Below, piece after piece: positions 3,384 to 52,600 of a stretch of 64,000 bases of DNA (its first letter is position 1; the number at the start of each line of letters is the position of its first letter). This stretch comes from Planctomycetota bacterium. GTDB taxonomy: Bacteria; Planctomycetota; UBA1135; UBA2386. Position numbers and translations under genes: made by a program. The stretch spans positions 2,595,166 through 2,659,165 of the forward strand of contig JADJWQ010000006.1 of the NCBI GenBank assembly GCA_016716265.1, read 5' to 3'. Below the pieces are notes generated by a model that worked only from the letters and a program-made list of their open reading frames with translations, ran no database searches and was not told the DNA's origin.

Positions 3384-5363
3384 ATGCAACGCTACCTCGT
3401 TCCCGTCGCCGCAGCGCTGACCACGCTCGTGCTGAGTACCGGCGAAGCCCTCGCGCAGAGCCCCGCGACGCCACCGCACGTGTGGGTGTCGTCGAACGTC
3501 GACTCCGGCTACCTGCACAACCTCTCCAACCAGCCCGCGGTCGTGTTCAGCGAGCGCATCCGCTACGACCAGACGACCTGGCTGCAGCTGCAATTCGCGC
3601 CCGACGTCAGCCTGCCGGCCGGCTCGTTCCTGCGCATGACTGCAGCGCAGGACGGCGCGATCCAGCGCCACGACGCCCGTACGCTCATCGACTGGAGTCA
3701 CTACTCCGCCCGCTTCAACGGCAACGAGGTGCTGATCGAGCTCGTCGCCGGCCCGGGCACGCGCGGCAATCGCGTCGCCGTCGACCAGGTGGCGCGCGGT
3801 CTGGTGCTGGTGCCCCCGGAGAGCATCTGCGGCAACATCGACATGCGTGTCGCCAGCAACGATCCGCGTCAGGGTCGGCTGTTCATCGGCTGCACCGGCT
3901 GGATGGCGCACTACGAGATCATGCTGACGGCCGGCCACTGCATGAGCGCCGGCGGGCCGGACTTCATCGAGTTCAACGTGCCGCTGTCGACGTCGACGGG
4001 ACAGCCGGTCGCTTCGCACCCCGACGACCAGTATCCGTTCTCGCGCATCCAGTTCCTCGACGCCGGCATCGGTGCCGACTGGGCGGTGTGCCGCGTGCTG
4101 CCGAACAGCAATCACGGCATGCTCCCGACGGATCGCAACAACTTCCAATGGTACGCGCTCGGCCCGGTCCCCGGTGGCGCCGGCAGCAGCGTCATCCGCA
4201 TCACCGGCTACGGCACGACGACCGCGCCCGCGCCGGCCAACCTGAACCTCGCACAGAAGACCGGCATCGGCCCGCTGTCCGTCGTCGGCGTCGACTCGCT
4301 GTGCTACCAGACCGACTCGACCGGCGGCAATTCGGGCGGTCCGATCATCCTCGAGCAGACCGGTGAGTCGATCGGCATCCACACCCACGGCGGCTGCAAC
4401 ACGATCATCGGTTGCAATAGCGGCACGCGCATCGACCGCTCCGATCTCGCCGGCGTCGTCCGCAGCGTGACCTACCGGGCCGGCGCGTTCCAGACCTTCG
4501 GCCAGGGCTGCCAGGGCTCGGGCGTCTCGTTCAACGTCTGCGCCGGCCTCAACACGACCGGCGGCCCGCTGACGCAGCAGACCTCGCCGAACGAGTACGC
4601 CTACGAGTTCGACGCGACGAGCGCGGTGACGATGCTCGGCTTCCGGATCTACTCGTCGTCGTCGACCGGCCAGACCGAGACGGTCAACGCAGCGATCTAC
4701 GCTGCCGACATCCGCGGCAATCCGGTGACGACGCCGCTCGTCACGACGACGGTCGCCATCGGTGCGTCCGCCGGGTTCTACCAGGCGACGCTCGCGACGC
4801 CGCTCAGCCTCGCCGCCGGTCGCTACTTCCTCGCGATCGACCACACCGCGGGCACGACCTACGTCAGCAACATCACGTCGACGACGTTCGGCCGTGCGTT
4901 CCGCCGCCCGAACGCCTCGACCACCTGGTCGCTGTCGTCGCTCATCACGTCGCCGTCCTTCCAGATCCTCTGCACCGGCGGCACGCAGGGCGTCACGCCC
5001 GCGATCTCGGGCAGCGGCACGCCGGAGCTCGGTCAGACGTTCCGCGTCGTACTGAGCGGCGGCGCGCCGAACACGATCGCGACGAAGTTCACCGGCTTCT
5101 CGAACATGACCTGGGCGGCGGGCTCGCTGCCGTTCAACTTCGGCATCCTCGGCGCGCCGAACTGCAACCTGCTGGTCAGCACCGACGCCTACTTCAGCGT
5201 CGGCACCAATGCCGCCGGCGACGCGTCCGTGCCGTTCCTGGTCCCGAACATCTTCACGCTGGTGGGCCAGAAGCTCTACCACCAGTGGGTGATCGTCGAC
5301 CCGAGCGCGAACAACCTCGGCGCGTCGTTCTCGAACGCGCTCGAGACGACGCTCGGCGGCTGA
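3384..5363 (+). CDS. secreted trypsin-like (S1 family) serine protease with C-terminal extension
   Basis: ATG at 3384 precedes signal peptide MQRYLVPVAAALTTLVLSTGEALAQ. His active-site motif TAGHC and Ser motif GGNSGGPI are present. About 300 aa of C-terminal extension end in the shared secreted-protein tail module. Confidence 0.8.
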   Translation: MQRYLVPVAAALTTLVLSTGEALAQSPATPPHVWVSSNVDSGYLHNLSNQPAVVFSERIRYDQTTWLQLQFAPDVSLPAGSFLRMTAAQDGAIQRHDARTLIDWSHYSARFNGNEVLIELVAGPGTRGNRVAVDQVARGLVLVPPESICGNIDMRVASNDPRQGRLFIGCTGWMAHYEIMLTAGHCMSAGGPDFIEFNVPLSTSTGQPVASHPDDQYPFSRIQFLDAGIGADWAVCRVLPNSNHGMLPTDRNNFQWYALGPVPGGAGSSVIRITGYGTTTAPAPANLNLAQKTGIGPLSVVGVDSLCYQTDSTGGNSGGPIILEQTGESIGIHTHGGCNTIIGCNSGTRIDRSDLAGVVRSVTYRAGAFQTFGQGCQGSGVSFNVCAGLNTTGGPLTQQTSPNEYAYEFDATSAVTMLGFRIYSSSSTGQTETVNAAIYAADIRGNPVTTPLVTTTVAIGASAGFYQATLATPLSLAAGRYFLAIDHTAGTTYVSNITSTTFGRAFRRPNASTTWSLSSLITSPSFQILCTGGTQGVTPAISGSGTPELGQTFRVVLSGGAPNTIATKFTGFSNMTWAAGSLPFNFGILGAPNCNLLVSTDAYFSVGTNAAGDASVPFLVPNIFTLVGQKLYHQWVIVDPSANNLGASFSNALETTLGG

Positions 5364-14070: not shown

Positions 14071-14073
14071 TGC
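13941..14073. repeat. copy A of a 133-bp imperfect direct repeat (3' end of CDS 13030..14070)
   Basis: About 92% identical to 21620..21752. The shared core is ccggtcggccgcgtgtcgagcagcagcgcgtcgagc.cgaccggtctcgcattcgccaacaccggcctcgtcatcggc.tgcgctgatgc. Confidence 0.85.
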
Positions 14074-14316
14074 GCCCGGGCTGCGCTTCGAGACCATTCC
14101 CGTGCTCGCACTTGCCGACACGCGGGGTGCGGTCTTGCGGTAACTCCGTGCTTGCCGACGCACTCCCGTCAGGCTGACCGCGTCCTCGCGTCACTCGCTG
14201 GCGGACGCGCGGCCGGGACGACATCGGGCCGTTGGTCCGGATTCCTGGTGCCGCGACGGCGCTTCGGGTGTGATGCCAAAGACACCGGACCGAGCCCGAG
14301 TCCAGGGGGCACCGCC

Positions 14317-14889
14317 ATGGACGAAACCCACGCCAGCACGGACGACGAGGGGACGCTCGCCGAGCGCGCGCGGCGCGGCGACCAGGGCGCGAAGGCCGAT
14401 CTCCTCGCAGCGTACCGCCAACGGCTCGTCCGCTTCTGCCACGGCTATCTCGGCCGGAGCGAGGACGCCGAGGACGCGGCGCAGGACGTGCTGGCGAAGC
14501 TGCTCGCCGCTCCGTGGCCGCAGGGCAAGTTCCGGCCGTGGCTGTTCTGCGTGGCGCGCAACCACTGCCTGAATCTGGAGCGCCGCGTGCGCGGCAGCCC
14601 GGTCGACTACCGCGGCGCATTCACGACGTCGCACCTGCCTTCCCCGCACACGGGCCCCGCTACCGCGCTCGGCCGGCACGAGCGCGACCGCCGGCTCGCC
14701 GAGGCGATGCAGTCGCTGTCGCGCCAGCACTCCGAGGTGCTGTTCCTGCGCTACTTCGAGGAGCTCGAGCGGGACGAGATCGCGGCGGTGCTCGGCGTGA
14801 CGGCGGCCGCCGTCAAGTCGCGGCTCGCGCACGCGCGCCGCGAGCTGTTCCGGCGCCTTGGCCCGCAGGGGATGGACGAGATGGGCTGA
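14317..14889 (+). CDS. ECF-type RNA polymerase sigma factor (sigma-70 family)
   Basis: Regions 2 and 4 are recognisable (AQDVLAKLL...; EVLFLRYFEELERDEIAAVLGVTAAAVKSRLAHARRELFRRL). 190 aa. Confidence 0.8.
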   Translation: MDETHASTDDEGTLAERARRGDQGAKADLLAAYRQRLVRFCHGYLGRSEDAEDAAQDVLAKLLAAPWPQGKFRPWLFCVARNHCLNLERRVRGSPVDYRGAFTTSHLPSPHTGPATALGRHERDRRLAEAMQSLSRQHSEVLFLRYFEELERDEIAAVLGVTAAAVKSRLAHARRELFRRLGPQGMDEMG

Positions 14890-14943: not shown

Positions 14944-17931
14944 TCAACGGTCCACAGCGAGGATCTCCAGCCATGCCGCCTGCCGGCCGCGGATCCAGAC
15001 CGCGGCATTGCCGCCGGCGCTCCATCTCGGCAGCGAGGACATGCCGGGCACGCCCCGTGTCACGACCTGGCGCGCCTGCCGGTCGTAAACGTGCACCGGG
15101 CTGCCCTCCGCTGCGCCACCGTAGCTGAAGAAGTAGAACCGCTCGCCGTCCGGGGCCCACGCGCCGATCCAGTCCCAGGAGTCCGACTGCTGGATCGCGA
15201 CCTCGGTCGGCCGGCCGTCGAGCCACGCGAAGCGGATCTGCGAGTCGTTCGCCGGGCCATAGTCGACGTAGGTCACGAACTCCCCGCTCGGATGCCAGAC
15301 CAGACCTTCCTTGTAGCGGGCCTCCTCCGGTGGCGTCATGCGGGTCAGTTCGCCAACCGGGAACGCGATCGCGAACGCGGTGTTCACATGCGCTGCCAGG
15401 TCGGCGTCGGTCGCGTAGCCGAGCGCGGCGATGAAGTCACCGTTCGGCGACCACTCGAGTGTGCCGTCCCAGCGCGGAAGCCGGGCCAGCTCCCGCGGCG
15501 CGTCGCTGCCGTCGGCGGCCACCACGAGGACACTGCGGCCGTCGACGTACGCGAGCCAGCAGCTGTCGGGAGACCAGCGGATCCAGACCGGGCACGAGGT
15601 GCGCGCGAGCACGCGCAGGTCACCGCTGTCGATCGACTGCACGCAGACCTCCGCACGGTCCGGATCGCCCGTCGTCCAGGACGAGAACGCGATCCGCGTG
15701 CTGTCCGGCGCCACGTCGTAGAGCGTGCCGAAGGACATCACGCCCAGCGGGCCCGAGGCGTCGTAGGCAGCACTGGTGAGCAGACGAGCCGCCCCGCCGC
15801 CTCGCGGCATCGCGAACAGGCCGCGCTGGCCGGAGACCTCACCGATGAAGAACACGGTCCGTCCGTCCGCCGACAGGCGCGGGGCACGGCCGCGCGTGTG
15901 CTCCGTGCCTTCCTCGAAGCGGTCCCCCGTCGTCGTCCAGACCGTCGCGGTGTCACGGCGCACGCCGACGAGGAGCGCGCCATCCGACAGGAAGCGCGGC
16001 GCGACGAATCCCTCGTTGTGCAGGAACGTCACCCGTCGTGGTGCGGCGGTCGCGCGACCAGTCTCGCCGTCGACCGCCAGCCTCCAGATGTCGCTCCCGC
16101 TCGCCGCGGGAGTCGTGCCGCTCGCGACGAACCAGACCGAGCGACCGTCCGGTGCCCACACGGGCTGGTGGCAATCGTCCGGCGTCGTCGTGAGCTGCCG
16201 GCTCGAGCCGCCGACGCGTGGGACGAGCCAGAGGTCGCTCCGGGGCGGGCCCTCGGACCGAGTTGCGTCGACCACCAGCCAGCGGCCGTCGGCGGACCAG
16301 CCGCCGAGTGAGCTGACCGGTGGCAGGTCCGTCGGGTGCCGGCGAACCGTGCCGCCGACGAGCCGGATACTGTCGATGCGGTCCGTCAGGCACGTGATCT
16401 CGTGTCCGTCGGGCGTCCAGCAGACGTCTCGGATTCGCGCACCTCGCTCGGGTGCTGGCAGCGCCTGCTCGATCCGCGCCTCCGCAGCGTTCCAGACGAG
16501 CACGAACTGCTCCGCCTCGCCCTGCCGATTGCCGACCGCGGCAATCCGGAGGCCATCGGGTGACCAGCGCGGCGCAGTGCATCGGAACTCGGCGATGTCG
16601 TCGGGTCCGCCCCCGCCGCCGAGCGGCCGGCCGATTCCGGTCACGCGGTCCCAGACGCGCAGCCGAAAGCCCACCGCGTAGACGATCTGCGCTCCGTCCC
16701 CGAGCGCGTCGAACGTCCTTCGGCTGCCGGCATCGCTCAGAACGTCGGGGATGTCGATCGGCATCCGCTGCGCGAGTCGCGGTCGCGTATCGGTGTCCTC
16801 CGACGGGAGGAACAGAATCGCGGCGAGCACCGCAAGAGCGGAGGCGGCGAGCCAGGGCCACCGTCCTCGTCCGAACCACGAAGGCAGCCTGCGCGCCACT
16901 CTCGCTCGGACCGCCTCGCCGGCCAGGTGGCGGCGCAGGTCCGCCGCGAGATCGAGAGCGGAGCCGTAGCGCCGCGTCCGGTCGACGGCGATCGCCTGCA
17001 GCACGATGTCCCGGAGCGGTCGTGGGATCGAGTCGGCCCTCGCCACCGCATGGGCCACGTCGGGCGAGGCGAACGTCCGGACCGCCTCGGCGAGGCTCGT
17101 CGGCGCCCCGTACGGCAGTCGGCCGGTCAGCAGCTCGTGGAGCATCACGCCGAGCGAGTAGACGTCGCTCCGCCTGTCGATCGCCGGCGTGCCCCCGAGC
17201 TGCTCCGGGCTCATGTAGGGGATCGTCCCGCCCGGCGACGCGAGCACGGATCGGGACAACGAGACGTTGCCGTCCGGGCGCAGGAACCGCGCGAGCCCGA
17301 AGTCGAGCACGCGCGGCCGACCGTCGCCGTCGACGAGCACGTTGGTCGGCTTCACGTCCAGGTGGACCACGCCGCGCTCGTGCGCGTGGTGGATCGCCTC
17401 CGCGGTCTGCGCGATCAGCTCGAGGCGTCGCTGGAGCGACGCCGACGTACGCGCACAATGGCGATCGAGGGGTTCGCCCTCGACCAGCTCCATCACGAGA
17501 TACAAGAAGCCGCCGTCGCGTCCGGCGTCGTGGATCACGACGAGGCACGCGTGTCGCAGCTTCGCGAGCGCCTGGACCTCGCGCTCGAAGCGGCGCAGGT
17601 CGCCTGCCGTGGACGGGCCGACCGGTCGTAGGACCTTCAGCGCCACGCGGCGCGCGGGGTTCGGTTGCTCGGCCTCGTACACGACGCCCATGCCGCCCTC
17701 GCCGAGGCGACGGACGATGCGGTAGGGCCCGATCGATGCGGGCAGCGGGGTCGGGTCCGCGCTGCACAGCGCGGTCAGTCCTTCGTGGACGCGCCGCAGC
17801 CGCTCGAGGCATTCGCGGCACGATGGGCAGGACTCCACATGCGCCCGCAGCTCGCGCGGCGCGTCCGCGTCGGGGTCGTCCAGCAGGTCCCAGAGCTGAG
17901 CTTCGTCGATCGCACAACTCCGGGGTTCCAT
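14944..17931 (-). CDS. Ser/Thr protein kinase with N-terminal zinc-finger (anti-sigma-like) region, TM segment and C-terminal TolB/WD40-like beta-propeller
   Basis: HVESCPSCREC motif. Kinase subdomains GEGGMGVVYEA, VALK, HRDVKPTNVLV, DFGLAR and PYMSPEQ. Hydrophobic segment WLAASALAVLAAILFL. Long propeller-like C-terminus. Convergent with the ECF sigma gene. Confidence 0.85.
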   Translation of the reverse strand: MEPRSCAIDEAQLWDLLDDPDADAPRELRAHVESCPSCRECLERLRRVHEGLTALCSADPTPLPASIGPYRIVRRLGEGGMGVVYEAEQPNPARRVALKVLRPVGPSTAGDLRRFEREVQALAKLRHACLVVIHDAGRDGGFLYLVMELVEGEPLDRHCARTSASLQRRLELIAQTAEAIHHAHERGVVHLDVKPTNVLVDGDGRPRVLDFGLARFLRPDGNVSLSRSVLASPGGTIPYMSPEQLGGTPAIDRRSDVYSLGVMLHELLTGRLPYGAPTSLAEAVRTFASPDVAHAVARADSIPRPLRDIVLQAIAVDRTRRYGSALDLAADLRRHLAGEAVRARVARRLPSWFGRGRWPWLAASALAVLAAILFLPSEDTDTRPRLAQRMPIDIPDVLSDAGSRRTFDALGDGAQIVYAVGFRLRVWDRVTGIGRPLGGGGGPDDIAEFRCTAPRWSPDGLRIAAVGNRQGEAEQFVLVWNAAEARIEQALPAPERGARIRDVCWTPDGHEITCLTDRIDSIRLVGGTVRRHPTDLPPVSSLGGWSADGRWLVVDATRSEGPPRSDLWLVPRVGGSSRQLTTTPDDCHQPVWAPDGRSVWFVASGTTPAASGSDIWRLAVDGETGRATAAPRRVTFLHNEGFVAPRFLSDGALLVGVRRDTATVWTTTGDRFEEGTEHTRGRAPRLSADGRTVFFIGEVSGQRGLFAMPRGGGAARLLTSAAYDASGPLGVMSFGTLYDVAPDSTRIAFSSWTTGDPDRAEVCVQSIDSGDLRVLARTSCPVWIRWSPDSCWLAYVDGRSVLVVAADGSDAPRELARLPRWDGTLEWSPNGDFIAALGYATDADLAAHVNTAFAIAFPVGELTRMTPPEEARYKEGLVWHPSGEFVTYVDYGPANDSQIRFAWLDGRPTEVAIQQSDSWDWIGAWAPDGERFYFFSYGGAAEGSPVHVYDRQARQVVTRGVPGMSSLPRWSAGGNAAVWIRGRQAAWLEILAVDR

Positions 17932-18149
17932 CGTCGCACTCGTGGACTCGCCGACGTCCGCCGCGGCTCGCGACCACCGATCGCCAGCCGCGCGAGATGG
18001 TAGCGCGGTTCGGGCATCGGGAGAGGGCTCGCGTCCGGGCGGCCCGGTGGGGCGGGCCGGGATTCGAGGTCCGCGCCGGCTGCCCGGGTGTGCTGGTCTC
18101 CAGGTCGCGCGTAGGCGGCCGAGAACCACGAGTCACGAGGAGGATCCGC

Positions 18150-39206: not shown

Positions 39207-39271
39207 GCGGCCGGGCGGCGGGCTCATGCCCCGTGAGTGTACCGACGGGGCCGGACGCTACGCTGCCCGAC

Positions 39272-41027
39272 ATGCGACCTTCGCACCGCCCGACTCCTCC
39301 CGCGAACCGGCGGAGCTTCGGTCCACGCCGGCGTCGCGCCGTCGCATCGCTGCTGATCGCCGTGGCGCAGGCTGGCGCGCAGGACCGGCCCCCGACGCTC
39401 CCGGCGGGACTGTTCGACGAGCTGGAGCTGCTGTATCCGGACACGCCGGTGGCGAGCGGCGCAGACACGCTCCACGTCGACGTTCCGCGCGGCAGCTTCG
39501 CGGCGGCACACGTGCTGATCGCGCCGGGCGCACCGGCCGACCAGCCGGCCGACGCGCTGCTCGAGGTCCGCTTGGACGTGACCGGCCTGCCGCTCGGAGC
39601 ACCCGTCCTGTATCGCCTCGTCAGCGTCCCGGTCGAGGAGAACACCGGCATCGAGAGCCGCACCGAGCGCTGGGACGGTCGCACCAATCCGTTCGTCGTG
39701 CGGCGCGCGCCGTTCCGAGTGTTCGAGGCGATGGCCCCCGCGACCTCGCCATTGCGAGGCGAGGACTCGACGCTCGCGCTACGCATCGAGCTGACGGTCC
39801 CGCCCGACAGCGACCCGGGCAGCCGATCGGTGTCCGTGACCTTGCAGCGCGGGAGCTCCCGCGCCGAGCTGGAGCTCGACGTGACCGTATACGCGTTCGT
39901 CGTACCGCCCACGGGCCGCGATACGACTCGCTACACGAACTGGTTCAGCCTCGGCCGGATCGCCACGGACCGTGGCGTCGAGCCGTGGAGCGAGCCGTTC
40001 TGGGACGCGCTCCAGAGCTGCGCGCGGCTGATGGCCCGCGGGCGGCAGAACACCTTCTGGGTGCCGTGGAGCGCGATCTTCGAACGTGGCGCGGACGGCC
40101 GCCCGCGCCTGCTCACCGAGCGATTGGCACGCTACGTCGCGACGTTCGAGACCGCCGGCCTGTGGTGGATCGAGGGCGCACCGTTCGCGCGACGGCCCGG
40201 CGGCGACTGGTCGCGGCCCGATCTCGAGCTGTCGATCGTCGACCTGCCCGCTGCGAGCGAGGCGGGCCGTGCCGCGCTCGCCGACATGGCGGGTCAGCTC
40301 GCTCGCATGATCGAGGCACGTGGCTGGCGTGACCGCTGGCTCCAGCACATTGCCGACGAGCCGACCGACACCAATGCCGTCGCATATCGCGAACTCGCAG
40401 ACGTGTTGCGCGAGCACCTGCCCGGCGTGCCGATCGTCGAGGCGACGATGTGTCGGACAGTGGCCGGCGCCGTCGACATCTGGTGCCCGCAGGTGCACCG
40501 GTTCCAGGCGCACCGGGACTTCTTCGCGGAGCGGCGCGCGCTCGGGGAGCGCGTGTGGGTCTACACCTGCCTCGTGCCCGGCGGACCCTGGCTCAACCGG
40601 CTCCTCGACCAGGAGCGGCTGCGGCCGGTGCTGATCGGCTGGGCGCTCGACCGCTTCGACCTCGACGGGTTCCTGCACTGGGGCTTCAACCACCAGCGCA
40701 CCGACCCGTTCGCGCAGAGCGTCGTGCCCCACGGCTCCGAGCCGAACAACCGGCTGCCGGCGGGCGACAGCCACATCGTCTTCCCGGGTCCGGGCGGCCC
40801 ATGGTCCGGCCAGCGCTTCGAGGCGCACCGCATCGGGCTTCGAGGACCGCGAGTGCCTGCGCGCACTGCGCGCGCGCGATCCTCGGCGGGCGGACGCGAT
40901 CGTCGGCTCGGTGCTGCGCGGCTTCGACGACTACACGACGAGCGTCGCCGACTACCGCGCGGCGCGCCGGAAGCTGCTGGAGGCAGCCAGCGAGGCCGGG
41001 CGCCGGGCCGGCGGGTGACCCCGCCCC
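39272..41027 (+). pseudogene. secreted (Tat-like signal) hypothetical protein, reading frame broken near 40816..40845
   Basis: Signal RRRRAVASLLIAVAQAGAQD. Frame 1 is protein-like up to ...WSGQRFE, then Arg-rich. The protein-like continuation GFEDRECLRALRARDPRRADAIVGSVLRGFDDYTTSVADYRAARRKLLEAASEAGRRAGG* is in the +1 frame and ends at the TGA at about 41025. Confidence 0.45.
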
Positions 41028-41094
41028 GCGGCCGCGCCGGTCTGGTAGCTTGTCCGCCCGAACCCGCCCGGGTGGGCGGGTCGACGCCCCCGTC

Positions 41095-42165
41095 ATGAAC
41101 GAACTCCTCCGCACCGCCGTCCGCGCGGTGGCCGTGGCACTGGCGTGTGCCGTGGCCGCACCCGCGCAGCGCCCGCAGCCGACGCCCGAAGAGCTGCAGA
41201 AGAAGTACGACGAGGAGCTCGCGCTCCCGTTCGTGCAGAAGGGCAACTGGATCGTCGACTACGACGAGGCCCGCGCCCGCGCCCGGCGGGAGGGCAAGCT
41301 GATCTTCGCCTACTTCTCACGCAGCTACGCCTATTGAGGGCCCTGCAAGGCCCTGGAGAGCCGTGCGCTCTCCGACGATCGCATCACCGCATTCACCGCC
41401 ACCGTCGTGCCGTTCCTGCACGTGACGACGCACATTCCGGGTAGGCCCTACGACGACCTGCTGCGGCAGAAGGGCTTCGGTGGCTTCCCGACGCTCTGCG
41501 TGATGGACGCAGACGGCGAGGTGCTGTACCAGCTGCCCGGAAGCGACCGCTCGATCGAGGGCTTCTACGCCGCGGTCGACCGCACCGAGCGCCTGCTGCG
41601 CGCCCGCAAGGCGGTCGAGACCGGCGAGCCCGGCGCACGCAACAAGCTCCTGCTGCTGTTGCTCGACATGGGACAGGTCGGCTTCGACGACGCGCTCGCG
41701 CAGGCGAAGGAGCTGACGCTCGATCCGGACGAGCAGATCGTCTTCCAGGTGCGCCTCGTCGAGACGCTGCGGCGGTTCCGCGGCGCGGACCTCGACGCGG
41801 CGATCGAGCGCGTCGACTGGCTGCCGGCGCCGCGGGCGCGCGCCGCGGAGATCCGCAGCGACACCCGCCTGATGGAAGACCTCGCCCCGCTGATGGCGCC
41901 GATCCGCGCTGTGCGACCGGGCGAGACGCCGGAGCCGCGGCCGTACGGAATCGCCTACGAGCTGTGGCAGCAGGGTCGCAAGCCGAGCCCGTCGTCGCCG
42001 GTCGAGATGCTGTATTGGGACGCCGTCCGGCGCGCGAGCGTGGAGCGGAAGGACCTCGCGGGGTTCGAGGACGCGGCAGCGGTGCTGCGCAAGCGGTTCG
42101 CCGACAACGCGGCCTACCTCGAAGGGCTGGACAAGGACCTCGCAACGCTCCGCGGCGGGCAATGA
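41095..42165 (+). CDS. secreted thioredoxin-fold protein with in-frame TGA (candidate selenocysteine, U-G-P-C redox motif)
   Basis: Signal peptide MNELLRTAVRAVAVALACAVAAPAQ. ORFs 40450..41337 and 41407..42165 are in the same frame and are separated only by the TGA at 41335..41337. Read-through gives ...KLIFAYFSRSYAY-U-GPCKALE...VVPFLHVTT...GFGGFPTLCVMDADGEVL, a canonical thioredoxin motif with the TGA at the first Cys position. The stop TGA overlaps the ATG of the downstream sigma factor (ATGA). Confidence 0.6.
41337..41373 (+). promoter_or_regulatory. SECIS-like hairpins immediately downstream of the in-frame UGA
   Basis: Hairpin 1, AGGGCC/CUGCAA/GGCCCU, spans 41337..41354. Hairpin 2, GGAGAGC/CGUGC/GCUCUCC, spans 41355..41373. 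Its apical loop lies about 25-30 nt after the UGA and contains GU, which fits the spacing of bacterial SECIS elements. Confidence 0.4.
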
Positions 42166-42726
42166 CCGACCGCAAGCCGGCGAGCCCTGATGTAAAAATC
42201 GTACGCGGTACCGATCTGAAGTCTGCGGGGCAGCTGTTGCCGGTGGTGTACGACGAGCTGCGGCGGCTCGCGCGGAAGCGGTTGCGTAGTGGCGGGGCGG
42301 TGACGCTCGATGCGACGGCGCTCGTGCACGAGGCATACGCCAGGCTGGTCGTCGACGATGGCGCGTCGTTCCGTGGGCGCGACCACTTCTTCGCTGCGGC
42401 GGCGCTCGCGATGCGGCACGTGCTGGTCGACTGCGCGCGGCGCCGGTCCCGGCTGCGGCACGGCGAGGGGCGGCGACCGGTGACGCTGTCGGGCCACGAC
42501 CTGACGGCCCGCGACATCGACCTGCTCGAGCTCGTGGCACTGGACGACGCATTGAAGAAGCTCGAGAAGCTCGCTGAGCGCAAGGCCAAGGTCGTCGAGC
42601 TACGCTTCTTCGGCGGGCTCTCCAATGCCGAGATCGCACGCGCACTCGACATCAGCGACGCGACCGTCGAGCGCGACTGGCAGTTCGCCCGCGCCTGGCT
42701 GTCGCGGGAGCTGGCCGGAGACCCGA

Positions 42727-42737
<11 letters not shown>
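42162..42737 (+). CDS. ECF-type sigma factor (Ser/Thr-kinase-associated ECF group)
   Basis: LPVVYDELRRLARKRL ... LDATALVHEAYARL ... LSNAEIARALDISDATVERDWQFARAWL are hallmarks of planctomycete-type ECF sigma factors. The ATG overlaps the upstream stop (ATGA). Confidence 0.8.
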
Positions 42738-45576
<2,839 letters not shown>

Positions 45577-47262: not shown

Positions 47263-48617
47263 CGATCGTCTCCTCCGCCCTGCCGGACGGCGCGCAGCTC
47301 CTCGCAGCCGAGCTGGCGCCAGTACAGCGGACAGGCACCGTTGCAGATGTCGAAGTTGTCGCAACCGCGACAGGTGACGGGCGCCCGCGCCTTCGCCCGG
47401 AAGGCCCGCGCCCGCGGGCTCTGCCAGACGGCGTCGAAGCCGTCGCGCAGCAGGCTGCCGAGCGGCTCGTCGTAGCTGGCGCACGGCAGGACGCTGCCGT
47501 CGGCGCCGATCGACAGCAGCCCGTCGCAGGCCGAGCATCCCTTGTTGCCGAGGCCGTGCGTGATCGGATTGAAGATGCACATCGGCGTCGGCGAGTACCA
47601 CTTGAACTCGACGCCCTCCGCGCGCGCCGCACGTTGCACGGCATCGATGACCGGTCCGACTTCCGCGTAGCGCACGACCAGCGCGTCATCGCGGGCCGCC
47701 GTACCGGTCGGGATCATCAGGTTCATCGAGATCGTGCGGAGCCCGAGCTCGCGGCGCGCGAAGCCGGGAAACCGTGCGGCCTCGCCGACGTTGTGGCGGT
47801 CGAGCGTCGTGTTGGTATTGACGTTCAGGCCAGCGGCCAGGTAGCGCCGCACCGCGGCAGTCGCCTTCTCGAACGACCCCGGGATGCCGGTGATCCGATC
47901 GTGCGTGGCGTCGGTCACGCCCTCGATGCTGACCTGCACCGACTGCAGCCCCGCCTCGACCAGCTCCGTGACACGCCGCTCGTCGCTCAGGATCCCGTTG
48001 GTGATCAGGTTGACGCGCAGGCCGATCGACCGCGCGTATTGCACCATCTCGGCGAGGTCCCTACGCAACGTCGCCTCGCCCCCGGTGAAGCTGACGCTCG
48101 GCACCTGCGCGTCGTTTCGGATCGCGTCGAGCACCCGCCGCACGTCGTCGAGCGTCATCTCGACATCGCTGCCGACCGGATTGCAGGTGCAGTTGCAGCC
48201 GGCGTAGCAGAACTCGCAGCGGGCGTTGCAGCGGTACGTCACCGCGACCTCCGCCATGACCGGCAGCGGCGAGAAGCTCGCCGCGAACGGCTGCTTGTCG
48301 ACCGCCGGCGACTCGTAGGTGTCCGCGAGCCCGTCCTGCAGCAGCTTGCGGACGTCGAGCAGGAACCGCTCGACGTCGCACCAGACGTCCGCGCGGCGAC
48401 CCCAGGGTGCGAGCACCTCGGCGATCGGCACGCCGCGCAGCAGCGGCTCCAGCACGGCGACACCACGCTCGTTGAGGTGCACGGCGCGGTTCGGCCGCTG
48501 GATGAACACGCGATCGACCGCGCGCACGAAGACGTGATCGCGGACGTTCGCAGCCCAGTCATCGACCCAGGCGAGATCGGGAAGTCCGGGCTGCACCGGC
48601 TCGCATCGCACGTCCAT
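47259..48617 (-). CDS. radical SAM / SPASM-domain peptide-modifying enzyme with N-terminal PqqD-like RiPP recognition element
   Basis: CX3CX2C (CNARCEFC). GGE motif FTGGEATL. C-terminal twin-cluster Cys pattern (CSACDGLLSIGADGSVLPC ... CRGCDNFDICNGAC). The N-terminal 110 aa resemble a PqqD/RRE domain (RAVHLNERGVAVLEPLLRGVPIAEV). The ATG overlaps the stop of the upstream gene by 1 nt (TGATG). Confidence 0.85.
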   Translation of the reverse strand: MDVRCEPVQPGLPDLAWVDDWAANVRDHVFVRAVDRVFIQRPNRAVHLNERGVAVLEPLLRGVPIAEVLAPWGRRADVWCDVERFLLDVRKLLQDGLADTYESPAVDKQPFAASFSPLPVMAEVAVTYRCNARCEFCYAGCNCTCNPVGSDVEMTLDDVRRVLDAIRNDAQVPSVSFTGGEATLRRDLAEMVQYARSIGLRVNLITNGILSDERRVTELVEAGLQSVQVSIEGVTDATHDRITGIPGSFEKATAAVRRYLAAGLNVNTNTTLDRHNVGEAARFPGFARRELGLRTISMNLMIPTGTAARDDALVVRYAEVGPVIDAVQRAARAEGVEFKWYSPTPMCIFNPITHGLGNKGCSACDGLLSIGADGSVLPCASYDEPLGSLLRDGFDAVWQSPRARAFRAKARAPVTCRGCDNFDICNGACPLYWRQLGCEELRAVRQGGGDDR

Positions 48618-50320
48618 CAGAACGACCCTCCGCTGTGGCAGGCCGAGTGACACGCGGAATGGCAGGCCGAGTGGCACGCCGAGTGACAGGCCGAGTGACA
48701 CGCTGAATGGCACGCCGAGTGGCAGGCCGAGTGGCACACGTTGACGGGCACCGAGTCGCCCAGGAACGCCTCGTACGACACGTGGTCGACCGCGACGTCG
48801 ATGCCACGGGCGAAGCGGTCGGGTCGCAGCGAACGGTCGTAGTCGGTGTAGCCGTACTGCCAGAAGTACCAGTGATGCCAGCCGTGGTGCCGGTCGATGT
48901 AACGACGCGCGTCGTCGTCGGCGCGCGCCTCGTGCCCTTCGCGTGCGCGCTCCTCCCACACCGGGCCGATCTGCCCGCGCCAGTACTGCTTGGTTGCCTC
49001 GATATCGCAGTCCCAGGCCTTCTTCTGCACGTTCTCGACGACCATGTCGAGCAGGTCCTCGAGCTCGGCCCGGGAGAACGCGCCGTCGTCCTCCGCAGCC
49101 TGGATCATCGCGATCTCGTAGTTCTCGAGCTTCGCGCGGTCGTTCGGGTGTCGCTCGAGCACGCGGACGAGCAAGGGCTCCTCCCGCACCACCTCGAGGA
49201 AGCCGGCCTGCAGCAGTCGCTGCAGCATGACGCTCAGGATGCGCCGGTACGGAATCTCGAGGAAGAACGCGACCTCGATCGGCGTCAGGTCGGTGCAGAC
49301 CTTGCCGGGCTTGCGGAAGGTCGACAGCACGAGCTTCGGCGGCGTCCAGTCGACGCTCGCCCAGCTCACGTCGTCGATCGTGGCCCGTGCGTGCCGCGTC
49401 TCGCGGTGCTTGCTCCGGACGAGGAGCACGAACGCCCCGACCACGATGCCGCCGAGCAGGGCGGCCAGCGCGCGCGTGGTCGCGCGATCTTCGACCGGTT
49501 CACGCGTCGGCGGGCGCGGCGGGCGCGGCGCAGCGGGCTGGATCGGTCCGCGGACCGGTGCACGGGCCGGCGCCGGGCCGGCCGCGCCGGCGGCGCGCGT
49601 CCACGTCGCGGGCTCGAACACCGACGCCCGCACGTACTGCTGGATGTCGAACCGCGCGTCCTTGGCGAGGTTCTCCTGGTGCAGGAGCACCTCGAAACGA
49701 CCGTCTTCCGCCGTTCGGTAGTCGATCCGGTAGCGGTCGTTCATGAACTTCTCGGTGCGGAAGTGCAGCCCGTCGAGGAACGCGGGAGACCGCGGATCGC
49801 CGATCACCTCGGTCGGATAGCGCACGCGCACCGTGGCGTGCTGTAGCGCGTGATCCCAGGTCGACGGCGCCCAGTGGAACACCGCCAGCTCGGTGCCATC
49901 CGCGTCGGTCGTCCGCGCCAGGAAGCCGTGCGCCGCGAAGTCGGTCGCGAAGCGGAACCGGAAGATCACCTCGCCCTCGCGCACTCCGGCGCCGCCGGCC
50001 AGCTCGATGGTCTGCCGGCCGTTCCGATTACCCCGGATCAGGCGGTACTCGAGGCCGGAGGTCGTCGTCGCGCGCCCGAACCCGTCGTCCCAAACCGGCG
50101 CCAGCGAGTCGATCTGCGGCCCCGCGAACCAGAACCCGTGCAGCTCGCCGGTCGCCGCGTAGCACACGGTGTAGGTGACCGACGAGCGGCCGTCGGTGCC
50201 GACGTCGACGTCGACCTCGCACCACACCGGATGGCCCTGCTGCGCCGGCAGCCGCCCGCCGGAAAGGCCGAGAGCGACGATGGCGATGCCAGCCCGGAGA
50301 ACGCTGCCCGAGGACCCCAT
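48617..50320 (-). CDS. bitopic membrane protein (signal peptide, periplasmic domain, Pro-rich linker, TM, cytoplasmic domain) ending in a (Cys-His-Ser-Ala)x9 tail
   Basis: Signal MGSSGSVLRAGIAIVALGLSG. TM ALAALLGGIVVGAFVLLV. The C-terminus is VNV-CHSACHSACHSACHSACHSACHSACHSACHSACHS-GGSF*. Architecture resembles DUF2207-type proteins, but with a Cys/His repeat tail in place of a Gly-rich tail. Confidence 0.65.
   Translation of the reverse strand: MGSSGSVLRAGIAIVALGLSGGRLPAQQGHPVWCEVDVDVGTDGRSSVTYTVCYAATGELHGFWFAGPQIDSLAPVWDDGFGRATTTSGLEYRLIRGNRNGRQTIELAGGAGVREGEVIFRFRFATDFAAHGFLARTTDADGTELAVFHWAPSTWDHALQHATVRVRYPTEVIGDPRSPAFLDGLHFRTEKFMNDRYRIDYRTAEDGRFEVLLHQENLAKDARFDIQQYVRASVFEPATWTRAAGAAGPAPARAPVRGPIQPAAPRPPRPPTREPVEDRATTRALAALLGGIVVGAFVLLVRSKHRETRHARATIDDVSWASVDWTPPKLVLSTFRKPGKVCTDLTPIEVAFFLEIPYRRILSVMLQRLLQAGFLEVVREEPLLVRVLERHPNDRAKLENYEIAMIQAAEDDGAFSRAELEDLLDMVVENVQKKAWDCDIEATKQYWRGQIGPVWEERAREGHEARADDDARRYIDRHHGWHHWYFWQYGYTDYDRSLRPDRFARGIDVAVDHVSYEAFLGDSVPVNVCHSACHSACHSACHSACHSACHSACHSACHSACHSGGSF
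48632..48739. repeat. 12-bp tandem repeat x9 encoding (CHSA)n
   Basis: On the minus strand, units follow the pattern TGY CAY TCN/AGC GCS. The units differ at synonymous third positions (tgc/tgt, cac/cat, tcg/tca/tcc/agc, gcc/gcg). Confidence 0.9.
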
Positions 50321-50371: not shown

Positions 50372-52600
50372 TCAGTAGTCGAGCCGCGCGTGCAGCTGCG
50401 GCGTGGCTCCCCAGCCCGCGATGCAGCTCGCGGTCAGCGACGGCTCGTTGACCAGCCACTGGAACGTCACGCGCGCGCCGATCATCGTCAGCAGGCACGG
50501 CACCTCGAACACGTACGAGGCGGAGCCGAGCACGATCGGGCTGCCGCTGATCAACACCGGTTGCGTGATGACGCAGGCGCCGCACGGGATGTCGAGCCCC
50601 GGCACACCGACCAGGGCGAGCGCGATGTTGCCGGTCGAACCGCTCAGCGTGACGCGGAAGTCCCGGTTGCCGATCGCGAACGGGCCGTCCGTCCCGATCG
50701 TCCCCACCGTCCGAGCCGAGCCGCACTGACCACCGGCGGTCACGATCGAACCACCCGCGCCGAACGCCGAGAAGCGCGTTGCCAGGATCCCCTGGTCTTG
50801 CCCGACAAGTCCGGTTTGGGTGAACAGCAGCAGCGCATCGTTCGAGCTCGCTCCGGATGACCGCTGCGACGCGATGCATGCTCCGCTCACGGCGATTCCA
50901 AACGGACCGACGGGCGTGATCGTGATCGGGAGACCACACGGCATGCAGCGCGGATCGAGCTCCCGCCCCTCGATGCGCGCGGTGCTCGAGGTGGCGACCA
51001 AGAAGAATACGCCATACTTCGAGCCGAGCCATCCGACCGAAGGATAACGCTCCGAGTAGGTCGGATCGGTAGCGATCGCGAGAACGGGGCTCGCGGTCAC
51101 CGGTGGGCGACCAGGGTCCGCGAAGACCAGCCGTCCGTACAGATTATAGTCGCCGGTGCCGTCATCGCGCTTCGCCCACAGGACGAGGCCGCCACTGGTG
51201 GAGGATTCCACCGAGACCTCGTAGAAGATGCGATTGACGCTCGTGAACGAATCGAGGTAGAGCGGGTTGGAGACAGGAGCGCCCCGTGCGTCCACCTCGA
51301 TGACGACTACGGCCGACTGCAGGAAGTTGAACTGACTCCAGGCGATCAGCGCCCGATCACGGTCGTATCCCACATCGACGTCCAGATAATCGAGAGCTCC
51401 GCTCGCGAGGATGCTGGTCTGCCAAGGAACCGGCGCGGACAGACCGACCGTGACCGCGGTGCTGTAGACTCCCATCGCCTGGCCCGTGGTGGGATTCTTG
51501 GGGATCCACGCAACGCGGGCCCGATCGGATTGCGGGTCGCCACCCGCAGCCAGCTGGAGGATCGGCGAGAGCGACAGCGTCACCTGACCCGAACGCAAAG
51601 GTGATCTGGGATCGACGGACTGGCAGTACAGCCCGGTGTCGCCGCCGTACACGACCAGGAATCTGCTGTATGCGGCGACGTACACCACCTGCACGACGGG
51701 GGAAGCGTTCGGTCCGAACTGGGCAAGCCGGATCGGTGACCCTGCCGACTGGCCGGTCCAGTCCAGCTTCATGATCCAGACCTCCGGGTTCTGGCCAAGG
51801 AACGGATTCCCCGAACGCGTCCACCCAACGAGGTAGTTGTTTCCCGACGGCGCGTAGGCGCAGTCGATTTCCGCGGGCGCGTAGCCGGGGTTGATCGACG
51901 TCACGATCGAGCCGACCAGCGGATCGAGCGTCAGGGGGTAGCTCGCCGCGTCGACGAAGCTCCCTGGCAGCTCGAGCCGCAGCGTCCGACCGTCGAGCCG
52001 CAGGAGGCCCGCGACCGACGCGCCCTGGGCGTCGACCCCGGTGACCGCGCCGATCGACACACCGCCACCGTCCTCACCGCGGAGCTGCAGCGTCCCGTCC
52101 GTGGCGAGCTCGGTCTGGAGCTCGGTGTGCAGCGACGCCTCGACGATCAGGTCGCCGGAGCCCGCGGGCCGTTGCTCGAACACCAGCGTCCACTCGAGCC
52201 CGTCCGGCCGCACTTCGAAGCACTCGCGCACGCCTTCCGTGCGCTCGAACACCGCGCACGCACCGTCCTCGGCCGGCTCGACGCCGGCCGGCACCCCGGC
52301 GACCCGCGTGCCGTCCGCTCGCCGGATCTCACCCAGCTCGATGTCGAGCGCCGCGCTGCGGCCGCCATCGACGCCGGCCGACGCAAACGCCACGACGCCC
52401 GCGCCGAACCTGGCGGCGTAGTCCTGGCCGCGGGCAGTCAGCGCGCCGGCCGGATTCCGCTCGAGCGTCACCGGCGGCACCCAGGATCCGTTGATCCGGA
52501 CCGGGTCGAGCGCACGCTGCGCGAGCGCGGGGCAGGTCAGCAGAAGGATCGTCAACGCGATGGCATCGCGCTGAACCGTGCGATGGGGAGATCTGGCCAT
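50372..52600 (-). CDS. secreted hypothetical beta-rich protein with the shared C-terminal module
   Basis: Signal MARSPHRTVQRDAIALTILLLTCPALAQ at the internal ATG 52600. Protein-like composition over 740 aa. Confidence 0.6.
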   Translation of the reverse strand: MARSPHRTVQRDAIALTILLLTCPALAQRALDPVRINGSWVPPVTLERNPAGALTARGQDYAARFGAGVVAFASAGVDGGRSAALDIELGEIRRADGTRVAGVPAGVEPAEDGACAVFERTEGVRECFEVRPDGLEWTLVFEQRPAGSGDLIVEASLHTELQTELATDGTLQLRGEDGGGVSIGAVTGVDAQGASVAGLLRLDGRTLRLELPGSFVDAASYPLTLDPLVGSIVTSINPGYAPAEIDCAYAPSGNNYLVGWTRSGNPFLGQNPEVWIMKLDWTGQSAGSPIRLAQFGPNASPVVQVVYVAAYSRFLVVYGGDTGLYCQSVDPRSPLRSGQVTLSLSPILQLAAGGDPQSDRARVAWIPKNPTTGQAMGVYSTAVTVGLSAPVPWQTSILASGALDYLDVDVGYDRDRALIAWSQFNFLQSAVVVIEVDARGAPVSNPLYLDSFTSVNRIFYEVSVESSTSGGLVLWAKRDDGTGDYNLYGRLVFADPGRPPVTASPVLAIATDPTYSERYPSVGWLGSKYGVFFLVATSSTARIEGRELDPRCMPCGLPITITPVGPFGIAVSGACIASQRSSGASSNDALLLFTQTGLVGQDQGILATRFSAFGAGGSIVTAGGQCGSARTVGTIGTDGPFAIGNRDFRVTLSGSTGNIALALVGVPGLDIPCGACVITQPVLISGSPIVLGSASYVFEVPCLLTMIGARVTFQWLVNEPSLTASCIAGWGATPQLHARLDY

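What the first reader, a model, noticed from the sequence alone, without database searches (positions are those of the whole stretch)
41095..42165. Candidate selenoprotein: thioredoxin-fold protein with in-frame UGA at the CGPC nucleophile position plus SECIS-like hairpins
Two adjacent same-frame ORFs are separated only by the TGA at 41335..41337. Read-through yields one continuous secreted thioredoxin-like protein: ...GKLIFAYFSRSYAY-[TGA]-GPCKALE...TATVVPFLHVTT...GFGGFPTLCVMDADGEVL. The TGA aligns exactly with the first Cys of the canonical W-C-G-P-C-K motif, giving U-G-P-C. Immediately after the UGA are two stable hairpins: AGGGCC-CUGCAA-GGCCCU, then GGAGAGC-CGUGC-GCUCUCC. The second has its apical loop about 25-30 nt downstream, compatible with a bacterial SECIS element. 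Without read-through there would be an 80-aa signal-peptide stub with a thioredoxin motif cut in the middle, which is implausible.
Basis: partly seen in the sequence, partly recalled or inferred. Interest (0 to 1): 0.8.

Follow-up and report, generated by a model that had tools for sequence, protein, structure and literature searches.

The report
Misannotated exported thioredoxin-like selenoprotein gene
One gene for a secreted thioredoxin-like enzyme almost certainly reads its internal UGA "stop" as selenocysteine, and it belongs to a large planctomycete family that databases routinely split into two "hypothetical proteins".

Summary
Window 41095-42165 (+) is one 356-codon frame broken only by TGA 41335-41337. 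A Pfam Thioredoxin_7 domain straddles that codon, which sits at the first position of a U-G-P-C redox motif.

Sixteen independent homologous loci, 35-50% identical and all Planctomycetota where named, carry TGA in the same column. Eleven full-length relatives carry Cys there. dN/dS is below 1 on both sides. An independent short-read assembly of the same organism also has the TGA.

The first hairpin is not conserved.

A profile search finds about 850 cluster representatives. About 90% of the best 151 begin just after this codon, so most look like truncated Sec forms.

The protein is a signal peptide, a DsbH/DsbD-gamma-like thioredoxin domain, and a TPR-like helical domain.

GenBank annotates it as two hypothetical proteins. 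It is absent from a 2026 inventory of 119 prokaryotic selenoprotein families and from NCBIfam.

Not shown: selA/B/C/D in this genome (untestable here), selenium incorporation, and substrate. Verdict: a real selenoprotein gene and a new member of a known kind.

The parts
41095..42165 (+). Complete selenoprotein gene of 356 codons: ATG 41095, Sec-UGA at codon 81, stop TGA 42163-42165.
   Evidence: Single open frame apart from one TGA. GenBank splits it into MBK8979675.1 (80 aa, IPM29_27565) and MBK8979676.1 (247 aa, IPM29_27570), both 'hypothetical'.
41095..41169 (+). Predicted N-terminal signal peptide (about residues 1-25, MNELLRTAVRAVAVALACAVAAPAQ).
   Evidence: Read from the sequence: a basic n-region, a hydrophobic core and an A-x-A-like end. 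All full-length homologs have a comparable N-terminus. No signal-peptide predictor was available, so this is inferred.
41248..41511 (+). Thioredoxin_7 (DsbH / DsbD-gamma-like) thioredoxin-fold domain, residues 52-139, which spans the UGA.
   Evidence: Pfam PF13899, E 2.3e-7. The profile hits Chlamydia DsbH 2ju5 at E 3e-10, with U aligned to the first Cys of CMWC. Foldseek best hits are DsbH and DsbD-gamma.
41335..41337 (+). In-frame TGA, the predicted selenocysteine codon (U81), first position of the U-G-P-C motif.
   Evidence: TGA sits in the same column in 17 gene copies from 16 independent loci. Eleven full-length relatives have Cys there. The TGA is confirmed in an independent assembly.
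41344..41346 (+). TGC, the resolving Cys84 of the UxxC motif.
   Evidence: C84 is at least 90% conserved in alignment A4.
41355..41373 (+). SECIS-like hairpin: 7-bp stem GGAGAGC/GCUCUCC, with an optional U41354-G41374 pair, and apical loop CGUGC (41362-41366). The loop starts 24 nt after the UGA.
   Evidence: Conserved with compensatory changes, GC<->CG in 3 sequences and GC<->AU in 4. The loop G-U is at least 90% conserved although the amino acid there varies among R, G and S, always through an NGT codon. The hairpin meets all four published bSECIS criteria here and in 15 of 16 loci.
41337..41354 (+). It is specific to this window and probably incidental.
   Evidence: Only 47.9% of cells are paired across homologs, below the shuffle mean.
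41488..41490 (+). Codon for Pro132 of the invariant G-F-P motif, the cis-proline loop typical of thioredoxin folds.
   Evidence: F131 and P132 are invariant in alignment A4.
41545..42162 (+). C-terminal all-alpha, TPR-like / alpha-solenoid domain (residues 151-356).
42162..42737 (+). ECF sigma factor gene. Its ATG overlaps the selenoprotein stop (ATGA), so it is probably co-transcribed. This is context, not part of the selenoprotein.
   Evidence: Pfam Sigma70_ECF, E 1e-46. The overlap is read from the sequence. This context is not conserved in other loci.
42727..45576 (+). Ser/Thr protein kinase with TPR repeats that overlaps the end of the sigma gene. This is context.
   Evidence: Pfam Pkinase E 1e-39 and TPR_12 E 2e-57.

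Best explanation
Window 41095-42165 is one gene for an exported selenoprotein.

Proposed recoding mechanism. The ribosome reaches UGA 41335-41337. The hairpin 41355-41373, whose NGUNY loop starts 24 nt downstream, is bound by SelB-GTP-Sec-tRNA(Sec). Selenocysteine is inserted instead of termination, and translation continues to the true stop at 42163.

Domain plan of the product:
- a signal peptide;
- a DsbH/DsbD-gamma-like thioredoxin domain whose nucleophile is Sec in a U-G-P-C motif, with resolving Cys84 and a cis-Pro loop at G-F-P132;
- a roughly 200-residue TPR-like helical domain.

Proposed function. It most likely acts outside the cytoplasm as a thiol-disulfide oxidoreductase, probably a reductase. 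It would cycle through a selenenylsulfide, and the helical domain would hold client proteins or a redox partner.

What is shown: the conserved TGA, the Sec/Cys pairs, purifying selection on both sides of the TGA, the covarying SECIS-like hairpin, and the fold.

What is inferred: dependence on SelB, export, the direction of the redox reaction, and the role of the helical domain.
For: - One in-frame TGA lies inside a Thioredoxin_7 domain.
- TGA, never TAA or TAG, occupies the same column in 17 gene copies from 16 independent loci at 35-50% identity.
- All six loci found in the genome collection are titled Planctomycetota.
- Eleven full-length relatives have Cys at the same column.
- dN/dS is 0.07-0.58 both upstream and downstream of the TGA.
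- The hairpin is 95.5% paired, with GC<->CG and GC<->AU compensatory changes at synonymous sites. No shuffle out of 500 did as well.
- The loop G-U is kept through R, G and S codons.
- 15 of 16 loci meet the published bSECIS criteria: loop 3-9 nt, stem 4-16 bp, G in the first two loop positions, 16-37 nt spacing, MFE <= -7.5 (criteria from PMC13188914).
- 136 of the 151 best family representatives start within about 30 residues after this column.
- TGA is also the ordinary stop of this gene and of its neighbour, so the codon is not reassigned.
- An independent assembly has the same TGA.
- The fold evidence points to DsbH and DsbD-gamma.
- Complete Sec machinery is reported in some Planctomycetes (PMC4807772).
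Against: - No selA, selB, selD or tRNA-Sec lies in the 64-kb window, and the rest of the genome could not be read.
- Rfam has no matching SECIS model.
- One homolog (L005) has a stable hairpin whose loop (CCAC) lacks the G.
- The hairpin overlaps conserved codons (L-E-S-x-x-L-S), so part of its conservation could be at the protein level.
- The control in non-Sec relatives rests on one sequence only (L022, where the hairpin has decayed to -5.7 kcal/mol).
- There is no experimental evidence for selenium incorporation, export or activity.
Confidence: 0.9

Rival explanations
1. SelB-independent read-through. The UGA is decoded at low level by a near-cognate tRNA (Cys, Trp or Arg), or by a suppressor. 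The downstream hairpin merely slows the ribosome or release-factor action, so the product carries an ordinary amino acid at position 81.
For: A stable hairpin just 3' of a stop codon can stimulate read-through in general (established knowledge, not tested here). The Sec machinery of this genome was not seen.
Against: - The UGA sits exactly on the catalytic Cys column of a CxxC motif, which is the classic Sec/Cys pair.
- The hairpin keeps the SelB-type features, G-U in a small apical loop at fixed spacing, rather than stability alone.
- About 90% of the best family representatives carry the stop. That would be a heavy cost if decoding were merely leaky.
Confidence: 0.05
2. Two separate genes: an 80-aa secreted stub and an independently initiated protein of about 250 aa, as GenBank annotates them.
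For: This is how automated annotation calls the region here and in most homologs.
Against: - The split cuts a thioredoxin fold between strand beta-1 and the active-site helix.
- The annotated downstream starts differ from locus to locus (MES.., LES.., MLS.., VLS.., MPFLH..) and are simply the first available ATG, GTG or TTG.
- The codons between the TGA and those starts are conserved and under purifying selection.
- The two halves are always adjacent and in the same frame.
- Cys-form relatives are single polypeptides.
Confidence: 0.03
3. Pseudogene or assembly error: a nonsense mutation or a miscalled base in this long-read MAG.
For: The window does contain at least one assembly indel, an extra T near 40839 that frameshifts the upstream GH123 gene and is absent from the short-read assembly.
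Against: - The TGA is identical in the independent Logan assembly.
- It recurs in 16 divergent loci.
- Sequence downstream of it is under purifying selection.
Confidence: 0.02

Closest known systems
Bacterial thioredoxin-fold UxxC selenoproteins with an in-ORF SECIS, for example Sec-thioredoxin (PF00085), 'thiol:disulfide interchange protein' (PF13098), DsbA-like, DsbG-like and SaoT, as listed in Table 1 of PMC13188914.
   Same: Sec replaces the N-terminal nucleophilic Cys of CxxC in a thioredoxin fold. Cys-form homologs exist. A small hairpin with G-U in the apical loop lies 16-37 nt after the UGA.
   Different: The domain family differs (Thioredoxin_7, PF13899), and there is an added TPR-like domain of about 200 residues. 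No family with this architecture appears in the 119-family inventory. No NCBIfam model reaches its cutoff.
Chlamydia DsbH (PDB 2ju5; NCBIfam NF043050) and the C-terminal (gamma) domain of DsbD.
   Same: These are the best sequence and structure matches for the thioredoxin domain: hmmsearch E 3e-10, with U aligned to the first Cys of CMWC, and Foldseek E 2e-4. All are extracytoplasmic and are described as reductase-type thioredoxin domains.
   Different: The score is 17 bits against a 190-bit equivalog cutoff. Those proteins use Cys, not Sec. DsbH has no helical C-terminal domain, and DsbD-gamma is tethered to a membrane electron-transfer domain.
Trx7/PDZ domain-containing (seleno)protein (NF041199) and the other Trx7-type selenoprotein families (VPGUxxT type 2, NF041383; TsoB, NF045694).
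   Same: They share the thioredoxin_7-like superfamily and are also selenoproteins. They give weak cross-hits, with a best E of 1e-7 to 1e-8 among 20 members.
   Different: Scores are far below the cutoffs. Sec is at the second position (CxxU) in Trx7/PDZ. This family has no PDZ or rhodanese domain and uses a different motif (F[ST]RSYxxUxxC).
CnoX/YbbN 'chaperedoxins' (thioredoxin domain plus TPR domain). This comparison comes from general knowledge, not from a test here.
   Same: The domain logic is the same: a thioredoxin fold followed by TPR-like helical repeats, which suggests redox chemistry coupled to client binding.

Membership tests
Bacterial selenoprotein gene (Sec-UGA recoding) | In-frame UGA with conserved coding sequence under purifying selection on both sides. 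| tested here: met
   TGA occupies the same column in 17 copies from 16 loci. dN/dS is 0.07-0.58 on both sides.
Bacterial selenoprotein gene (Sec-UGA recoding) | Homologs with Cys aligned to the UGA (a Sec/Cys pair). | tested here: met
   Eleven full-length Cys forms (CGPC, CPPC, CAPC, CEPC, CGFC, CPAC). Distant Trx7 proteins have CTNC there. DsbH has CMWC there.
Bacterial selenoprotein gene (Sec-UGA recoding) | bSECIS model: 3-9 nt apical loop, 4-16 bp stem, G in the first two loop positions, 16-37 nt between the UGA and the loop, MFE <= -7.5 kcal/mol (PMC13188914). | tested here: met
   In the window the stem is 8 bp, the loop is CGUGC, the spacing is 24 nt and the MFE is -13.0 kcal/mol. 15 of 16 loci pass all four criteria. 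Covariation supports the stem. No bSECISearch program was available, so the criteria were applied by script.
Bacterial selenoprotein gene (Sec-UGA recoding) | selA, selB, selC (tRNA-Sec) and selD present in the same genome. | not testable with these tools
   Only 64 kb of a 4.12-Mb contig is visible. The window holds no tRNA, and the scanned ORFs include no Sec gene. Complete sets are reported in other Planctomycetes (PMC4807772).
Bacterial selenoprotein gene (Sec-UGA recoding) | Selenium actually incorporated at the UGA. | not testable with these tools
   This needs 75Se labelling or mass spectrometry.
Thioredoxin fold / Pfam Thioredoxin_7 (PF13899) | The profile match exceeds the gathering score. 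| tested here: met
   31.3 bits against a cutoff of 27, E 2.3e-7, residues 52-139, with Cys substituted for U.
Thioredoxin fold / Pfam Thioredoxin_7 (PF13899) | The redox motif lies at the N-terminus of helix alpha-1 after strand beta-1, and a cis-Pro loop is conserved. | tested here: met
   The AF2 model of relative P0009 has strand 69-75 followed by helix 81-88, which carries the motif. G-F-P132 is invariant.
DsbH disulfide reductase (NCBIfam NF043050, equivalog) | The score exceeds the curated cutoff of 190 bits. | tested here: not met
   The window protein scores 17 bits. The best E among 20 members is 6.8e-10. The thioredoxin domain is related, but the protein is not a DsbH.
Trx7/PDZ (seleno)protein (NF041199) | The score exceeds the cutoff (300 bits), a PDZ domain is present, and the motif is CxxU. 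| tested here: not met
   The score is 12 bits. No PDZ domain is detected. Sec is at the first position of the motif, not the second.
GOS_C hypothetical selenoprotein (NF045500, UxxC) | A match to the NCBIfam model. | tested here: not met
   NF045500 is absent from the hits at E <= 1 and at E <= 0.01 for 20 members.

The most novel reading that the evidence does not exclude
This gene may represent a large and so far uncatalogued selenoprotein family that is essentially confined to Planctomycetota.

- The family has about 600 cluster representatives at 50% identity with E <= 1e-10.
- The Sec form appears to outnumber the Cys form roughly 9 to 1.
- It couples a Sec-containing DsbH-like thioredoxin domain to a TPR-like client-binding domain outside the cytoplasm.
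- That would make it a periplasmic, selenium-dependent 'chaperedoxin-like' disulfide reductase.

In this genome the gene is translationally coupled to an ECF sigma factor and a Ser/Thr kinase pair. It might therefore also feed envelope redox state into signalling.
Probability: 0.5. Interest if true: 0.6.

Novelty: new member of a known kind. Interest (0 to 1): 0.5.

Why it matters
- Annotation. This gene and hundreds of relatives are deposited as two 'hypothetical proteins'. Here they are MBK8979675.1 and MBK8979676.1. A family model would repair these records and add a Planctomycetota-centred family to the prokaryotic selenoproteome. That catalogue is dominated by Desulfobacterota and Pseudomonadota.
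- Biology. A family in which Sec forms greatly outnumber Cys forms, and which is exported, implies a real selenium demand in these organisms and a selenium-dependent step in envelope thiol-disulfide chemistry.
- RNA. The compact covarying hairpin (7-9 bp stem, NGUNY loop, fixed spacing of 24-25 nt) is a clean lineage-specific SECIS example. It could help train bacterial SECIS models.

None of this changes the known principles of Sec decoding.

Tried and rejected
- Rfam: no SECIS or other family matched, either at gathering scores on the whole window or at E <= 10 on 41300-41420.
- First hairpin (41337-41354): tested on the 16-sequence alignment and not conserved, so it was dropped from the element.
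- Other in-frame TGA candidates from a GC3 scan. The TGA at 50374 on the minus strand is only the junction of two same-frame genes. The one at 5035 on the minus strand lies in a non-coding or antisense frame. Neither is a selenoprotein.
- Conserved gene neighbourhood: neighbours in L001, L003, L005, L006, L008 and L009 differ (TPR, FG-GAP, HEAT, unknown). The ECF sigma/kinase linkage is specific to this genome.
- Word-indexed protein search: it returned only 3-4 hits even with a 20-sequence profile. The exhaustive profile search was the one that revealed the family.
I modelled the closest full-length relative, P0009, and the window's own C-terminal domain instead.
- The AFDB50 fold library was unavailable.
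- DNA of Cys-form P0152 could not be fetched. The check for hairpin loss in non-Sec forms therefore rests on one locus, L022.
- Sec machinery: the window was scanned for tRNAs and Pfam domains without result. I ran no further search on SelD, because a query distant from this lineage would not surface this genome's copy.
- Literature: searches for PF13899, DsbH or Planctomycetota together with selenoprotein found no description of this family.

Full report
**1. The observation**

Window 41095-42165 (+) is one 356-codon reading frame. It runs from ATG 41095 to TGA 42163-42165 and is interrupted only by TGA 41335-41337 at codon 81. With Cys substituted at that codon, Pfam Thioredoxin_7 matches residues 52-139 (E 2.3e-7, 31.3 bits against a cutoff of 27), so the domain straddles the stop. 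The local sequence is ...LIFAYFSRSYAY-U-GPCKALESRALS.... This puts the UGA at the first position of a CxxC-type motif.

GenBank annotates the region as two hypothetical proteins: MBK8979675.1 (80 aa, IPM29_27565) and MBK8979676.1 (247 aa, IPM29_27570). They come from a Planctomycetes MAG, on a 4.12-Mb contig.

**2. The TGA is not an error**

An independent Logan assembly of run SRR11674018 carries the same locus. It is identical to the window over 4119 bp except for one base elsewhere, and it has the same TGA. The one difference is an extra T near 40839 in the window. That base frameshifts the upstream GH123-like gene, which is intact (551 aa) in the short-read assembly. The window therefore does contain an assembly indel, but not at the TGA.

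**3. Comparative evidence for recoding**

The first two homologs found were both annotated as starting just after the equivalent position. In both, the upstream DNA continues the frame through a TGA in the same column. Scans of genome and metagenome collections raised this to 16 independent loci and 17 gene copies, because L014 holds two tandem paralogs. These loci are 35-50% identical to the window protein. Every one has TGA there, never TAA or TAG, within the motif F[ST]RS[YF][AS]x-TGA-xxC. All six loci from the genome collection are titled Planctomycetota.

More distant Trx7 proteins align CTNC at the motif.

An exhaustive profile search of 1.84 billion cluster representatives gave these counts:

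| Category | Count |
|---|---|
| Hits at E <= 1e-3 | 848 |
| Hits at E <= 1e-10 | 600 |
| Best representatives examined | 151 |
| ...starting within about 30 residues after the U column, at whatever ATG, GTG or TTG comes first | 136 |
| ...full-length with Cys at the column (CGPC, CPPC, CAPC, CEPC, CGFC, CPAC) | 11 |
| ...full-length with a degenerate motif | 4 |

That the 136 truncated entries all hide a TGA is an inference. It was verified directly only for the 16 loci.

dN/dS is below 1 on both sides of the TGA for all pairs tested. It is 0.07-0.14 for the closest pairs and up to 0.58 for distant ones. TGA is the normal stop of this gene and of the upstream gene, so the codon is not reassigned genome-wide.

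**4. The RNA element**

No shuffle out of 500 reached that value or the observed covariation score, and slid controls give 36-73%.

Two base pairs show compensatory double changes: GC<->CG in three sequences and GC<->AU in four. These fall at synonymous sites of conserved Leu, Glu and Ser codons.

The apical loop is N-G-U-N-Y, and its G and U are at least 90% conserved. The amino acid encoded there varies among Arg, Gly and Ser but is always written NGT. This points to selection on the RNA rather than the protein.

*Published SECIS criteria.* The bacterial SECIS model requires a 3-9 nt loop, a 4-16 bp stem, a G in the first two loop positions, 16-37 nt between the UGA and the loop, and an MFE of -7.5 kcal/mol or lower (PMC13188914). 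The window element passes with an 8-bp stem, loop CGUGC, 24-nt spacing and -13.0 kcal/mol. So do 15 of the 16 loci. L005 has a stable hairpin but a CCAC loop.

*Controls.* The first hairpin (41337-41354) is paired in only 47.9% of cells, below the shuffle mean, and is not part of the element. In the single non-Sec relative whose DNA could be read (L022), the equivalent hairpin has decayed to -5.7 kcal/mol. Rfam has no matching model.

**5. What the protein is**

All full-length family members begin with a signal-peptide-like N-terminus. This is inferred from the sequence, because no predictor was available.

An AF2 model of the closest full-length relative (P0009, 37% identical, pLDDT 92.7) shows a thioredoxin fold. 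The motif lies at the start of the helix that follows strand beta-1. An all-alpha domain comes next.

The invariant G-F-P132 is the usual cis-Pro loop.

The thioredoxin domain is closest to Chlamydia DsbH and to DsbD-gamma. Foldseek gives E 2e-4 for 2ju5. hmmsearch gives E 3e-10, with U aligned to the first Cys of CMWC.

The best-supported reading is an extracytoplasmic thiol-disulfide oxidoreductase. Sec81 would be the attacking residue and Cys84 would resolve a selenenylsulfide. The helical domain probably binds clients or a redox partner. The reductase direction is inferred from the resemblance to DsbH and DsbD-gamma and is not shown.

**6. Genomic context**

The stop codon overlaps the ATG of an ECF sigma factor gene (ATGA at 42162-42165). 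That gene in turn overlaps a Ser/Thr kinase gene with TPR repeats, which suggests one operon in this genome. Neighbours differ in the other loci, so this linkage is not a family trait.

No Sec-machinery gene or tRNA-Sec lies in the window. The rest of the genome could not be accessed. Complete selA/B/C/D sets are documented in other Planctomycetes (PMC4807772).

**7. Comparison with what is known**

The kind is well known. Most bacterial selenoproteins are thioredoxin-fold proteins with UxxC or CxxU motifs and an in-ORF hairpin (PMC13188914).

This particular family is not among the 119 families and subfamilies in that 2026 inventory. It reaches no NCBIfam cutoff. The weak hits are DsbH at 17 bits against 190, Trx7/PDZ at 12 against 300, plus VPGUxxT type 2 and TsoB; GOS_C does not match at all. 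Full-text searches found nothing on it.

A 2016 supplement lists 'thiol-disulfide isomerase-like thioredoxin' Sec candidates in a planctomycete. Whether they belong to this family is unknown.

**8. Verdict**

- It is a new member of a known kind.
- It probably represents a large, mostly-Sec, Planctomycetota-centred family that annotation pipelines split in two.
- The rivals are SelB-independent read-through, two separate genes, and a pseudogene or sequencing error. They are unlikely for the reasons given under each.
- The open points are the Sec machinery of this genome, actual selenium incorporation, export, and the substrate.

Noticed in passing
window 40839 (approx.), within 39233-41018 (+): The upstream GH123-like glycoside hydrolase gene is frameshifted in the window by one extra T (GGGCTTCGAG against GGGC-TCGAG). 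The independent Logan assembly has an intact 551-aa gene ending 76 nt before the selenoprotein ATG. This is a long-read assembly indel, not a pseudogene.
   Followed up: yes
window 48617-48740 (-): A 584-aa ORF with no Pfam match ends in a tandem (CHSA)x9 tail: ...[40 protein letters not shown]. A Cys/His-rich repeat of this sort could bind metal.
   Followed up: no
L014 636 and 1605 (Ga0265309_10100394): Two tandem paralogs of the family sit head to tail. Each has its own in-frame TGA and its own conserved hairpin.
   Followed up: partly
L016 3161-3165 (Ga0316209_1001032): The family gene shows an apparent frameshift just upstream of its TGA, seen as two tblastn segments in different frames. 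It is probably a sequencing error.
   Followed up: no
window 14071-14889 (+) and 14944-18132 (-): A second ECF-type sigma factor lies next to a second Ser/Thr kinase, this one with PD40/WD40-like repeats. The arrangement echoes the sigma/kinase pair downstream of the selenoprotein gene.
   Followed up: no
L001 6886-9726 and L005 3894-6551 (-): FG-GAP repeat proteins adjoin the family gene in two unrelated loci. A 2016 study (PMC4807772, Table S9) lists FG-GAP/ASPIC-UnbV proteins as selenoprotein candidates in planctomycetes. A possible functional link was not examined.
   Followed up: no
window 50372-50374 (-): A TGA separates two same-frame coding regions with high GC3 on both sides. It looked like a second Sec candidate, but it is only the stop of one gene followed in frame by the start (MGSSGSVLRAG...) of the next.
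   Followed up: yes
window 41018-41094 (+): The 76-nt gap before the selenoprotein ATG contains a G+C-rich inverted repeat (CCCGCCC-GGGT-GGGCGGG, about 41062-41079). There is no obvious Shine-Dalgarno sequence before the ATG.
   Followed up: no
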